From the UHGV virus genome UHGV-1376965: a stretch of 64,000 nucleotides of DNA; one strand, written 5' to 3'. Position 1 is the stretch's first letter, and every line of letters starts with the position of its first letter. Below are positions 1,489 to 4,401 of this stretch, in pieces. Source of the stretch: a virus. Below the pieces are notes generated by a model that made no database searches, was not told the origin of the DNA, and was given only the letters and a program-made list of their open reading frames with translations. The position numbers and the translations under genes are program-made.

Positions 1489-2386
1489 GCACTGGAAAAA
1501 CATTACTATTTATAAACTTTCTCGTGAGGCGGATCTGACCGACTTAGAAGATAAAAAGAAAATGATCCTTTTCACGCCATGCGGTAGTCAGGATATGGCC
1601 AAGTTCGGTTTTGTATCTCCATTTGGTGATAATTCCGAAGTTATCGCTATGCATGGAAATGGTTTTATCCTTGTTGAAGCAAAGCGCGAAACAAAAATTC
1701 TTCCCCCGCCGGTTATCCAGCGAGCTATTCAAGAAAAAATTGAAAAACTTGAGCAAGAACAAGCGCGTAAACTGAAGAAAACAGAGAAGGACTCCCTGAA
1801 AGACGAAGTTCTGCATTCTCTTCTGCCACGGGCTTTTTCAAAGTTTTCTGTTATCCAGGCGATCTACGACGGTTCAACTAAACGTATCTATATCAATGCC
1901 AGCGCGCGGCAGGCAGAGGATATGCTCGCGCTTATGCGTAAGTCTCTGGGTTCTCTTCCTGTTGTTCCCCTGAGTGTTGAAAATCCCATTGAATTAACGC
2001 TGACCGACTGGGTACGTGATGGTAGTGCTCCACAGGGATTTCAAATGGGGGATGCGGCAGAACTTAAGGCTGTGCTTGAGGATGGCGGTATTGCCCGAGT
2101 GAAAAAGCAGGATTTGGGAAGCGATGAAATTTCCACACACCTGGAAGCTGGCAAGCTCGTTACTAAGTTGGCACTCGACTGGCAGAACCGCATTAAATTT
2201 ACACTGGACCATAACTTCAGCCTTACCAGCGTCAAATTTGCGGATGAATTGCTTGAGCAGAACTCTGATATTGATAGTGAAGATGTTGCGCAGCGACTGG
2301 ACGCAGATTTCTTCCTGTTGACCAGTGAAATTTCGTGCCTGGTTGATGCTCTGGTAAATGCCCTTGGTGGAGAGGCTAAGCAGTGA
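1481..2386 (+). CDS. hrdC: RdgC-like recombination-associated protein
   Basis: N-terminus [13 protein letters not shown] resembles E. coli RdgC MLWFKNLMVYRL; about 300 aa as expected for RdgC; same position as P1 hrdC. Confidence 0.75.
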
Positions 2387-4401
2387 AAGAGCTGTGCTAT
2401 GGATCTGTTTGCAGTGGAATTGAAGCCGCGAGTATTGCCTGGGAACCGTTGGGTATGCGTCCGGCGTGGTTTGCTGAAATCGAGCCTTTTCCATCTGCCG
2501 TTCTTGCGCACCGCTGGCCCCATGTCGCCAACCTTGGCGACATGACAAAACTTGCCAAAAAAGTCCTGGCTGGGGAAATCGAATCCCCTGATGTGCTCGT
2601 CGGGGGTACGCCTTGTCAGGCATTCAGTATCGCGGGCTTACGTGGTGGGCTTGATGATGAACGCGGCGCGCTAACTTTGAAGTATGTGGAGCTTGCAAAT
2701 GCAATTGACGACAAACGGTCTGAGTCCTTCCTCAAACCGACAGTTATCGTCTGGGAAAATGTCCCAGGAGTCCTGTCATCGGCAGATAACGCCTTCGGAT
2801 GTTTCCTTGCCGGATTGGCTGGAGAAGATGCGCCATTTGAACCAGGTGATCGACCTGAATCAGGAAAAAGTAACGCGTTCTGGCGGTGGGATGGCAAAAC
2901 CGGTTGCCATGCTCCAAAGTGGCCGCAGTGTGGTTGTATTTATGGACCGCAGCGAAAGGTGGCCTGGAGAATCCTTGATGCCCAATACTTCGGAGTGGCA
3001 CAACGACGCCGACGCGTGTTTGTTGTCGCAAGTGCTCGAACAGACCTCGATCCCGCAACGGTACTTTTTGAGTTCGAAGGCGTGCGCCGGAATATTGCGC
3101 CGAGCAGAGGCGAGGGGAAGGAAACTACCAGATATACTTCAAACATCGCTATCAGATCTTGCGATGATACAAACATAGTTGCCATGGCACATGGGCAAGG
3201 AGGGGCTGAGATAAAAACCGATAATTCGGCACCAACTTTGACATGTAACCATGAAGCACCAATTGTATTGCTCGTCGACGGTAGAATGCGCCGTCTTATC
3301 CCTGTCGAATGTGAAAGGCTGCAAGGTTTTCCTGATGGACATACATTGATCCCTACGGAAAAGCGTAAAAAAGTTTCTTCAGATGAACTGGCATACCTTC
3401 GCAAAAACTATCCTGATTTGAGCGAAGAAGAGGCCGCGATGCTTGCAGCTGACGGACCGCGTTACAAAGCGATCGGCAATAGTATGGCGATACCAGTAAT
3501 GCGCTGGATTGGCGATCGGATTGCCAAGGCTGCATGTCGGCAGAAGGAAGGGAGTGAAACAAAAGAGCGAAAAGTTAAACCAGCGGCAGAATTCGAACGG
3601 TCCATATTCAAATGGGCTGGTGGAAAATTTGGTGTTCTGGAACAAATCTTTCGCTATTTGCCAGAAGGGAAGCGCCTGATTGAGCCTTTCGTTGGTGGCG
3701 GAGCTGTCTTCATGAATGCCGGATACCAGGAAAATCTGCTAAATGATGTGAATGCTGACCTGATTAACTTTTACAAGACTCTGCAACGCGAGGCGCATTC
3801 ACTTATCACTCTGGCACATCGTTTCTTCCAGGACTACAACACGCAGGAAGGATACCTGGCAGTACGGAATGCGTTTAACAAACAAGTCTATGATGATTTA
3901 CATCGCGCAGCGGCGTTTTTGTTCCTGAACCGACATTGTTTTAACGGATTGACGCGTTACAACCAAGCCGGTGAGTTCAATGTCGGTTATGGGAAGTATA
4001 AAACTCCGTATTTCCCATTGCAGGAGATGGAAGCCTTCCTTGGTGCGGAAGGGCGTTCTGAGTTTGTATGTGGTGATTTTGCTGCGGTGATTGAAGCTGC
4101 CGGAGAAGGAGATGTCATCTTTTGCGATCCGCCGTATGAACCGCTCCCAAATACAGAGGGATTCACGAACTATTCCGGTCATGACTTTAAGTTTGAAGAG
4201 CAAAAACGCCTGGCGTCTCTGTTGACGGATGCTCATCGCCGAGGTGCAAAGGTTCTCATTACTAACAGTGGCGCGCCAAACATCAGAGAACTTTATCAGG
4301 ACAGTGGCTTCAGAGTGGAACCTCTTTTTGCCAGACGTTCTGTGTCTTGTAAGGGGGACACTCGAGGTGTTGCTCATGACGTTATAGCAATATTGCTCTA
4401 A
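2383..4401 (+). CDS. dmt: bifunctional DNA methyltransferase: N-terminal C5-cytosine MTase fused to C-terminal Dam-like N6-adenine MTase
   Basis: 672 aa, GTG start overlapping hrdC stop; N-terminal half has C5-MTase motifs [12 protein letters not shown] (PCQ), WENVPG (ENV), [15 protein letters not shown]; C-terminal half has Dam motifs [21 protein letters not shown]. Confidence 0.85.

What the first reader, a model, noticed from the sequence alone, without database searches (positions are those of the whole stretch)
2383..4401. Single-polypeptide Dcm-Dam fusion methyltransferase
One 672-aa ORF carries a complete C5-cytosine MTase motif set (PCQ, ENV, QRRRR, GNS-IP) at the N-terminus and a complete Dam-type N6-adenine set ([19 protein letters not shown]) at the C-terminus. 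Such an orphan dual-specificity enzyme would pre-modify phage DNA against several restriction types at once. I recall P1 Dmt as bifunctional but am unsure its length and domain order are the same, and the C5 target-recognition region specificity is unknown.
Basis: partly seen in the sequence, partly recalled or inferred. Interest (0 to 1): 0.45.

Follow-up and report, generated by a model that had tools for sequence, protein, structure and literature searches.

The report
P7-type Dmt methyltransferase of P1-like phage
The 672-residue cytosine-plus-adenine DNA methyltransferase is real, but it is the already catalogued P7-type allele of the bacteriophage P1/P7 gene dmt ("dam"), common in P1-like plasmid-prophages; only the target of its cytosine half is still unknown.

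Summary
Window 2383..4401 (+) is one intact 672-aa ORF with an N-terminal C5-cytosine MTase domain (all six conserved motifs) and a C-terminal Dam-type N6-adenine MTase domain.

It is not a new enzyme. It is dmt of a P1-like phage-plasmid, 100% identical to RefSeq WP_000660970.1 (Salmonella IncY plasmid pSA20094620.3) and 649/672 identical to phage P7 "Dam", which is annotated as a hypothetical bifunctional MTase. Synteny matches P1: C1 operator, uhr, hrdC, dmt, ban operator, tRNAs, ban.

It differs from reference P1 Dmt (754 aa) almost only in the segment between C5 motifs VIII and IX, the target-recognition region. That segment is 62 aa here and 144 aa in P1. It is a mosaic of short cassettes shared among alleles of 672 to 1095 aa, and the window carries the minimal single-cassette form.

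The Dam half is 263/268 identical to P1's GATC methylase, and its known target, pac (4+3 TGATCA/G), lies at 33202-33360. The C5 half looks functional (motifs intact, dN/dS 0.13-0.25, HhaI-like fold), but no paper I could search gives its specificity.

Verdict: already known, low interest.

The parts
1116..1132 (+). C1 repressor operator Odmt (former Op68), with the promoter Pdmt region, ahead of the uhr-hrdC-dmt operon
   Evidence: Matches the C1 operator consensus at 16/17 positions. The operator sequence is identical to the P1 and P7 regions annotated as Odmt/Op(dam).
1204..1488 (+). uhr, first gene of the operon (94 aa)
   Evidence: Position is collinear with P1 uhr (L001 3822-4106).
1481..2386 (+). 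hrdC, an RdgC-family recombination-associated protein. Its stop codon overlaps the dmt start.
   Evidence: Collinear with P1 and P7 hrdC and annotated rdgC in the identical plasmid. The GTGA overlap is seen. The rdgC-dmt pairing is kept in a 61%-identical relative.
2383..4401 (+). dmt (P7 'dam'): 672-aa bifunctional C5-cytosine / N6-adenine DNA methyltransferase, P7-type allele
2383..3537 (+). C5-cytosine MTase domain (aa 1-385) with motifs I, IV (catalytic C78), VI, VIII, IX and X
   Evidence: PF00145 and TIGR00675 hits. The AlphaFold2 core has pLDDT 85-97 and Foldseek's top hit is M.HhaI at E=1.9e-11. dN/dS is 0.13-0.25.
3103..3288 (+). Variable target-recognition region (aa 241-302) with a single cassette, [27 protein letters not shown]
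   Evidence: It is replaced by unrelated or longer sequence in P1, SJ46, CP135714 and CP035876. A profile alignment places a family xPTLx cassette on the T250-L251 loop of M.HhaI. The P7-type segment is found in 184 PLSDB plasmids and 195 complete E. coli genomes.
3538..3594 (+). Charged linker between the two domains (aa 386-404, [20 protein letters not shown])
   Evidence: Not covered by either Pfam domain. pLDDT is below 50 at aa 390-400.
3595..4398 (+). Dam-type (D12 class) N6-adenine MTase domain (aa 405-672), inferred to be GATC-specific
   Evidence: PF02086 E=1.2e-57 and TIGR00571 at 253.9 bits against a cut-off of 114.85. It is 263/268 identical to the P1 Dmt Dam half and 106/267 to E. 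coli Dam.
4392..4419 (.). Bivalent C1 operator Oban (Op72ab) overlapping the dmt stop codon. It controls the downstream tRNA-ban operon.
   Evidence: Consensus matches at 4392-4408 (+, 0 mismatches) and 4403-4419 (-, 2 mismatches). The sequence is identical to P1 and P7.
33202..33360 (+). pac packaging site inside pacA, with 4 + 3 TGATCA/G hexamers. It is the known cis substrate of Dam/Dmt adenine methylation.
   Evidence: It is the densest GATC cluster in the window, with 8 GATC in 200 nt. The role of methylation at pac is taken from PMC12707154.

Best explanation
The ORF is dmt of a P1-like (Punavirus) phage-plasmid, in its P7-type allelic form.

Shown:
- It is one 672-aa protein with a complete C5-cytosine MTase domain (aa 1-385), a roughly 20-aa charged linker, and a complete Dam-type adenine MTase domain (aa 405-672).
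- It sits in the conserved operon C1 operator, uhr, hrdC, dmt. Its stop codon is overlapped by the C1 operator of the ban operon.

Inferred from near-identity to P1 Dmt and from what is published on P1:
- The operon is repressed by C1 in the lysogen and switched on during lytic growth.
- The Dam half methylates GATC on newly replicated phage DNA, including the seven TGATCA/G elements of pac (window 33202-33360). This licenses pac cleavage and packaging. It is redundant with host Dam in dam+ cells.

Inferred from sequence only:
- The C5 half is catalytically competent and methylates one cytosine-containing target, defined by its single short recognition cassette (aa ~266-295, containing APTLTCN).
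- That target differs from the one or ones modified by P1-type, SJ46-type and other alleles, which carry different and more numerous cassettes at the same position.
- The most likely benefit is protection of progeny DNA from m5C-sensitive restriction enzymes in new hosts.
- The target sequence itself is unknown.
For: Identity and synteny:
- The DNA is 96.8-97.4% identical over its full length to P7 dam and to other P1-family phages. It is 100% identical to dmt of Salmonella plasmid pSA20094620.3.
- At protein level it is 649/672 identical to P7. Against P1 it is 239/240 identical over aa 1-240 and 263/268 over the Dam half.
- Both C1 operators are conserved, and the gene order matches P1 and P7.

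Domains:
- Pfam, NCBIfam and PHROGs hits. The PHROGs family phrog_116 spans both halves.
- E. coli Dam structures match at E=1e-58.
- The AlphaFold2 core is confident, and M.HhaI is the top Foldseek hit at E=1.9e-11.

C5 half under selection:
- dN/dS is 0.13-0.25, against 0.09-0.15 for the Dam half.
- The motif residues are invariant across 67 homologues.
- In sister alleles an intein sits exactly at the catalytic Cys.

Recognition-region cassette swap. The xPTLx signature aligns to the TRD loop of M.HhaI.

Dam role and expression:
- PMC12707154 and PMC11437467 for the Dam role.
- dmt transcripts are induced during P1vir infection (bioRxiv 10.64898/2025.12.28.696737).
- The pac site is present in the window.
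Against: - No paper I could search reports m5C activity or a target sequence for any Dmt allele. The GenBank notes say only 'perhaps'.
- dmt is non-essential in dam+ hosts.
- The recognition region is modelled with pLDDT below 50, so its structure is unverified.
- An HMM of the window's cassette does not detect the other cassettes significantly. That they are equivalent recognition modules rests on the short PTL signature, their position, and their mosaic distribution.
- The anti-restriction benefit is inference only.
Confidence: 0.85

Rival explanations
1. The C5 domain is a vestigial or inactive passenger. The protein works only as the phage Dam (GATC methylase for pac and replication control), and variation in the recognition region is neutral decay.
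For: - All experimental literature found treats Dmt as an adenine methylase.
- NCBI names it 'Dam family'.
- The laboratory P1 reference carries G74W at an otherwise invariant Gly of motif IV and is fully viable.
- The TRD region folds with low confidence.
Against: - All six C5 motifs, including catalytic C78, E125 and R209/R211, are intact here and invariant or nearly so in 67 homologues.
- dN/dS of the C5 half is 0.13-0.25, close to the Dam half.
- The ORF is intact in 461 of 498 plasmids.
- The variable region changes by in-frame cassette exchange, not by frameshifts or stops.
- An intein persists at the catalytic Cys in many alleles.
Confidence: 0.12
2. A novel dual-specificity enzyme distinct from P1 Dmt. 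This is the unusual case the first reader hoped for.
For: The length (672 aa against 754 aa) and the recognition region differ from the canonical P1 protein.
Against: - It is 97% identical to P7 Dam, sequenced and annotated as bifunctional in AF503408.
- It is identical to RefSeq WP_000660970.1.
- The same TRD segment occurs in 184 PLSDB plasmids and in 195 of 5426 complete E. coli genomes.
Confidence: 0.02
3. An artefactual fusion of two adjacent genes caused by a sequencing or assembly frameshift.
For: None found.
Against: - The junction and linker are identical in P1, P7, SJ46, RCS47 and hundreds of independently sequenced plasmids.
- The fusion is also present in relatives of only 56-69% identity.
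Confidence: 0.01

Closest known systems
Phage P7 'Dam' (AAQ07538.1, AF503408), annotated as a hypothetical bifunctional DNA methyltransferase
   Same: Same length (672 aa), same domain order, same single-cassette recognition region, and the same operon and operators. 649/672 residues are identical.
   Different: 23 scattered substitutions. None falls in a catalytic motif.
Phage P1 Dmt (YP_006537.1, 754 aa), formerly the P1 dam gene product
   Same: Same gene, locus, regulation and domain order. aa 1-240 are 239/240 identical and the Dam half is 263/268 identical. P1 has experimentally shown GATC methylation, which is needed for pac cleavage in dam- hosts.
   Different: The region between C5 motifs VIII and IX is 144 aa of unrelated cassettes in P1, against 62 aa here. 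The P1 reference has G74W in motif IV, whereas the window keeps the invariant Gly.
Multispecific C5 MTases of Bacillus phages (M.SPRI, M.Phi3TI, M.Rho11sI, M.H2I). Description is from memory and from PMC8936443 / PMC12707154.
   Same: They are phage-borne solitary C5 MTases whose variable region between motifs VIII and IX is built from short exchangeable recognition modules. Sister alleles of Dmt (SJ46, CP135714) carry 4-6 such cassettes, each with an xPTLx-like signature.
   Different: - The window's allele has only one cassette, so it is not multispecific by this criterion.
- No specificity has been measured for any Dmt cassette.
- The Bacillus enzymes are not fused to an adenine MTase.
- No sequence homology to them was tested here.
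E. coli Dam (PDB 2G1P, 4GBE and others)
   Same: D12-class fold and motifs (KWAGGK, FxGxG, DPPY). 106/267 residues are identical, E=1e-58. K9, N120, L122, R124 and Y138 of E. coli Dam align with identical residues in the query (read from the alignment; the Dam numbering and the DNA-contact role of these residues are from memory).
   Different: Only about 40% identical, and below the NCBIfam equivalog cut-off for host Dam (248.6 against 441). It is a C-terminal domain of a fusion protein and is phage-regulated.
Prophage C5 MTase fused to a PF05869-type Dam (for example P0054)
   Same: The same C5 family (about 51% identity, with the same [25 protein letters not shown] cassette) joined to an adenine MTase in one polypeptide.
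   Different: The adenine MTase belongs to a different family (PF05869, not PF02086). The element is an integrative prophage next to an integrase, not a P1-like plasmid. This points to an independent fusion event.

Membership tests
P1/P7 Dmt orthologous group (Punavirus dmt) | High sequence identity outside the variable region | tested here: met
   239/240 (aa 1-240) and 359/370 (from motif IX to the end) identical to P1. 649/672 identical to P7.
P1/P7 Dmt orthologous group (Punavirus dmt) | Conserved locus: C1 operator, uhr, hrdC, dmt, Oban, tRNA-Asn/Thr, ban | tested here: met
P1/P7 Dmt orthologous group (Punavirus dmt) | GATC adenine methylation that supports pac cleavage | not testable with these tools
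   Inferred from 98% identity of the Dam half to P1 and from the presence of pac with 4+3 TGATCA/G elements. The activity itself needs an experiment.
C5-cytosine DNA methyltransferases (PF00145 / TIGR00675) | Conserved motifs I, IV (PCQ), VI (ENV), VIII (QxRxR), IX and X (GNS) in canonical order | tested here: met
   Positions are listed. Both profile hits are above their curated cut-offs.
C5-cytosine DNA methyltransferases (PF00145 / TIGR00675) | Two-lobed M.HhaI-like fold | tested here: met
   AlphaFold2 pTM 0.74 with the core at pLDDT 85-97. Foldseek top hits are M.HhaI at E=1.9e-11, TM 0.49/0.60. The small (TRD) lobe itself is low-confidence.
C5-cytosine DNA methyltransferases (PF00145 / TIGR00675) | m5C formation at a defined target sequence | not testable with these tools
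   No published specificity was found.
Dam family, D12 class N6-adenine MTases (PF02086 / TIGR00571) | Profile match above the curated cut-off, with the DPPY catalytic motif and the AdoMet-binding FxGxG motif | tested here: met
   TIGR00571 at 253.9 bits (cut-off 114.85), PF02086 E=1.2e-57, DPPY at aa 582-585, EPFVGGGAV at aa 434-442.
Host Dam equivalog (NF008152) | Score at or above the equivalog cut-off | tested here: not met
   248.6 bits against a cut-off of 441. It is a phage subfamily member, not the chromosomal Dam orthologue.
Multispecific (tandem-TRD) phage C5 MTases | Two or more recognition modules in tandem between motifs VIII and IX | tested here: not met
   The window's allele has 88 aa between motif VIII and motif IX. 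That is the family minimum (range 87-343) and holds one cassette.
Multispecific (tandem-TRD) phage C5 MTases | Each module is an independent recognition unit (relevant to sister alleles) | tested here: inconclusive
   For: mosaic sharing of cassettes between alleles, and an xPTLx signature that aligns with M.HhaI T250-L251. Against: the cassette-B HMM finds no significant similarity to the other cassettes.
Solitary (orphan) methyltransferase | No cognate restriction endonuclease gene adjacent | tested here: met
   The neighbours are hrdC upstream and the operator and tRNA genes downstream.

The most novel reading that the evidence does not exclude
The C5 half of Dmt could be a hypervariable, cassette-shuffled anti-restriction locus of P1-like phage-plasmids. 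Alleles carry from one recognition cassette (this window, P7) to about six (SJ46, CP135714), exchanged by recombination. On this reading each cassette specifies a different m5C target, as in Bacillus-phage multispecific MTases. An intein at the catalytic Cys invades part of the population. The window's allele would then have a single m5C target that has not been characterised and that differs from P1's. The held literature describes neither this cassette mosaic nor any Dmt m5C target.
Probability: 0.4. Interest if true: 0.5.

Novelty: already known. Interest (0 to 1): 0.22.

Why it matters
For this window it matters little. The gene is a textbook P1/P7 gene, and the exact protein is already in RefSeq.

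The residual value lies in the family:
- Dmt's cytosine-methylating half has apparently never been assigned a target.
- Natural alleles offer a ready-made series for mapping which cassette recognises which sequence. There are at least five cassette arrangements in the recognition region among the eight elements examined, and some of them also occur with an intein.
- Such a map would show how phage-plasmids that move resistance genes between Escherichia, Salmonella and Klebsiella evade restriction.

Tried and rejected
- The Lobocka et al. 2004 P1 genome paper (PMC523184) is not in the held library, so its description of Dmt could not be quoted.
- Six literature searches found no report of Dmt m5C specificity, cassette modularity or the intein.
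- M.BatI (PMC8936443) and the RIMS-seq2 paper (PMC11954522) were read as possible leads to a specificity. Neither gave a link to this family.
- An HMM built from 44 distinct copies of the window's cassette was searched against the other alleles' variable regions. It returned only E about 1-6 hits on 'PTL'. Homology between cassettes is therefore not demonstrated.
- AlphaFold2 on aa 1-405 with 67 homologues gave a confident catalytic core, but pLDDT was below 50 across aa 233-293. No structural statement about the recognition lobe is possible, and I ran no further search on a multi-cassette homologue.
- Site counts in the window (GCGC, CCGG, CCWGG and others) give no usable clue to the C5 target.
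- The P7 record predicts an internal late promoter, LPdam2. That region is conserved here, but the sigma-70 scan neither supports nor tests it, so I make no claim about a separate Dam-only product.
- Rfam at gathering threshold found only the three tRNAs in 1-9000. It gave no match in the stretch corresponding to the one P1 annotates as 'dicF-like'.
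Full report
**Observation.** The ORF listing shows one uninterrupted ORF at 2383..4401 on the + strand, with a GTG start and 672 codons. The GTG overlaps the TGA of the preceding gene (GTGA) and follows a GGAGAGG ribosome-binding site.
- C5 motifs: I (SVCSGIE, aa 8-14), IV (GGTPCQAFS, aa 74-82), VI (ENVPG, aa 125-129), VIII (QRRRRVF, aa 207-213), IX ([15 protein letters not shown], aa 303-317) and X (GNSMAIPV, aa 365-372).
- Dam motifs: KWAGGK (aa 410-415), EPFVGGGAV (aa 434-442) and DPPY (aa 582-585).

Pfam gives PF00145 (E=2.4e-35) on the N-terminal part and PF02086 (E=1.2e-57) on aa 411-644. 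NCBIfam gives TIGR00675 and TIGR00571, both above their curated cut-offs. PHROGs family phrog_116 (779 positions) covers both halves as one family.

**What it is.** Megablast against phage genomes finds the whole 2019 nt at 96.8-97.4% identity in phage P7 (gene 'dam', annotated 'hypothetical bifunctional DNA methyltransferase') and in several P1-family records. It matches reference P1 dmt at 97.6% over 91% of the query.
- In PLSDB, 498 plasmids match, almost all non-mobilizable Escherichia or Salmonella phage-plasmids.
- Two of them are 100% identical. One is the Salmonella IncY plasmid pSA20094620.3, whose protein WP_000660970.1 equals the window's translation.
- The surroundings are those of P1 and P7. 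A C1 operator (Odmt/Op68) lies at 1116-1132, followed by uhr at 1204-1488 and hrdC at 1481-2386. After dmt come the bivalent C1 operator of ban at 4392-4419, overlapping the dmt stop, then tRNA-Asn, tRNA-Thr, a CAT-anticodon tRNA, and ban at 7587-8957.

The window is therefore a P1-like (Punavirus) plasmid-prophage and the ORF is its dmt gene.

**Relation to canonical P1 Dmt.**
- The order is the same, but P1 Dmt is 754 aa.
- Residues 1-240 are 239/240 identical. The stretch from motif IX to the C-terminus is 359/370 identical, and the Dam half alone is 263/268.
- The whole length difference lies between C5 motifs VIII and IX. The window has 62 aa (241-302) where P1 has 144 unrelated residues. 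In C5 methyltransferases this segment is the target-recognition domain.
- P7 and three other phage records share the window's version.
- The 216-nt segment containing it is found, at 80% coverage or more, in 184 PLSDB plasmids and in 195 of 5426 complete E. coli genomes, nearly always on plasmids.

The window thus carries a common, already sequenced allele.

**The variable region is a cassette mosaic.** I extracted dmt from eight elements, which gave alleles of 672, 691, 754, 807, 862, 1013 and 1095 aa.
- The two longest forms are the P7-type and P1-type alleles plus a 341-aa intein. The intein starts with Cys, ends in His-Asn, and is followed by the catalytic Cys of TP|CQAF. Homologues with this insert carry Hint and LAGLIDADG Pfam domains.
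- The remaining differences are combinations of short blocks between motifs VIII and IX. BLASTP shows the window's block ([27 protein letters not shown]) inside the SJ46 allele at 77% identity. P1-type blocks occur inside CP135714 and CP035876, and SJ46-type blocks occur on either side of them in CP135714.
- The same blocks recur in stand-alone prophage C5 MTases of Enterobacter and others.
- Across 105 homologues the distance from motif VIII to motif IX runs from 87 to 343 aa, and the window's 88 is essentially the minimum.
- Most blocks carry an x-P/H/F-T-L-x signature. In a profile-to-PDB alignment one such block falls on the ...GIAITLSAYGG... loop of M.HhaI, which contains T250-L251 of its recognition domain.

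This resembles the tandem recognition domains of Bacillus-phage multispecific C5 MTases, as described in PMC8936443 and PMC12707154. I could not show that the blocks are homologous to one another: an HMM of the window's block detects the others only at E about 1-6. No specificity is known for any of them. By the defining criterion of two or more modules, the window's own allele is not multispecific.

**Is the C5 half likely to work?** Four lines of evidence favour this.
- Every catalytic motif is intact, and the key residues are invariant in an alignment of 67 homologues.
- Among four P7-type alleles, dN/dS is 0.13-0.25 for the C5 half against 0.09-0.15 for the Dam half.
- AlphaFold2 models the catalytic lobe at pLDDT 85-97, and Foldseek's best PDB matches are M.HhaI complexes at E=1.9e-11.
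- Variation arises by in-frame cassette exchange, not by decay.

There are also points against.
- No paper in the library reports m5C made by Dmt, and the GenBank notes only say 'perhaps'.
- The recognition lobe is modelled with pLDDT below 50.
- The laboratory P1 reference has G74W at an invariant Gly of motif IV. This is the only difference from the window in the first 240 residues. If it inactivates the C5 half, that would explain why no m5C has been reported for laboratory P1.

**How it most likely works.**

*Shown:*
- The domain architecture.
- The operon structure with conserved C1 operators.
- The pac site at 33202-33360, with four plus three TGATCA/G hexamers, which is the densest GATC cluster in the window.

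*From the literature:*
- P1 needs Dam-type methylation of pac for cleavage, so dmt becomes essential only in dam- hosts (PMC12707154; PMC11437467).
- dmt is dispensable in dam+ cells (PMC10695390).
- dmt is induced during P1vir lytic growth.

*Inferred:*
- In the lysogen C1 keeps the operon off.
- On induction or infection, Dmt methylates GATC on rapidly replicating phage DNA through its C-terminal domain, and one cytosine target through its N-terminal domain.
- The cytosine mark probably protects progeny DNA against m5C-sensitive restriction in the next host.

Virion DNA, induced-culture DNA or a cloned gene is needed.

**Wider distribution.**
- A full scan of 1.84 billion representatives finds only about eight to ten 50%-identity clusters that match both halves strongly (P0121-P0129). 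C5-only relatives are far more numerous (44,282 proteins match the full-length query at E<=0.001, counting both C5-only and Dam-only matches), and from rank 13 on almost every one of the 150 best hits has its best stretch in the C5 half alone.
- A 61%-identical fusion keeps the rdgC-dmt pairing on a 180-kb contig with ParM-type partition genes.
- The same C5 family is fused to a different adenine MTase family (PF05869) in an integrative prophage next to its integrase. Cytosine-plus-adenine fusions therefore arose more than once.

**Verdict.** However, this is the known P7-type allele of P1/P7 dmt, present unchanged in public records. It is neither a new enzyme nor a new variant. The anti-restriction interpretation is reasonable but untested. 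The interesting residue is at family level: an uncharacterised m5C specificity, a cassette-mosaic recognition region, and an intein at the catalytic cysteine in sister alleles. That residue is not specific to this window.

Noticed in passing
L004:1501-4788 (RCS47) and L005:1501-4542 (OP279344); not in the window: A 341-aa intein is inserted in dmt immediately before the catalytic Cys of C5 motif IV (TP|C...HN|CQAF). Homologues with this insert have precomputed Hint_2 and LAGLIDADG_3 Pfam hits. About 16 of 60 sampled PLSDB dmt loci have the matching 3042- or 3288-nt span. It occurs on both P7-type and P1-type recognition-region backgrounds. No held paper mentions it.
   Followed up: partly
L001:5001-7265 (reference P1 dmt), codon 74: Reference laboratory P1 has Trp at position 74 (VWGTPCQ). 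The window, all other alleles and all 67 homologues in alignment A6 have Gly there. It is the only difference from the window in aa 1-240. It may be an inactivating mutation of the C5 half, acquired or tolerated in K-12-propagated P1.
   Followed up: partly
window:1-64000: Strong avoidance of GC-rich 6-bp palindromes, as observed against maximal-order Markov expectation: GGCGCC 0/22, CCGCGG 0/18, GCCGGC 0/17, CTGCAG 0/17, AGCGCT 1/19, AAGCTT 0/13.5, GAGCTC 0/10.5, CACGTG 0/5.8. GGCC is also depleted (163/269). This looks like a second, passive anti-restriction strategy alongside methylation.
   Followed up: partly
window:6159-7203: A 78-aa membrane ORF (6159-6395) and a 275-aa SPFH-domain lipoprotein-like ORF (6376-7203) lie between tRNA-Thr and the CAT-anticodon tRNA. 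P1 has plp/upl/tciABC at this position, so the cargo module has been swapped. The identical plasmid record annotates the larger ORF as an SPFH domain-containing protein.
   Followed up: no
window:7231-7306: ARAGORN calls this tRNA Met (anticodon CAT). The P1 record annotates the homologous gene as tRNA-Ile2 (ileX-like, lysidine-modified CAT).
   Followed up: no
window:3103-3288 versus flanks: Among four P7-type alleles, the 62-codon recognition segment has 0-1 synonymous differences. The N-terminal C5 core and the Dam half have dS about 0.06-0.20 for most pairs. This suggests the cassette spread recently by recombination across diverged backbones. The numbers are small.
   Followed up: partly
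window:41506-48273 (-): A 2255-aa ORF has the size and position of P1 darB, the virion-borne antirestriction protein with methyltransferase and helicase domains. If so, it is another DNA-modification or anti-restriction component in the same window.
   Followed up: no
L011:6001-7944 (Logan SRR27405647 contig) and L010:5115-8049 (JGI contig): The same C5 MTase family is fused to a PF05869-type Dam in an integrative prophage beside its integrase and guaA/guaB-like (GMP synthase / IMP dehydrogenase) genes. A 61%-identical C5 + D12-Dam fusion keeps the rdgC-dmt gene pair on a 180-kb ParM-bearing contig.
   Followed up: partly
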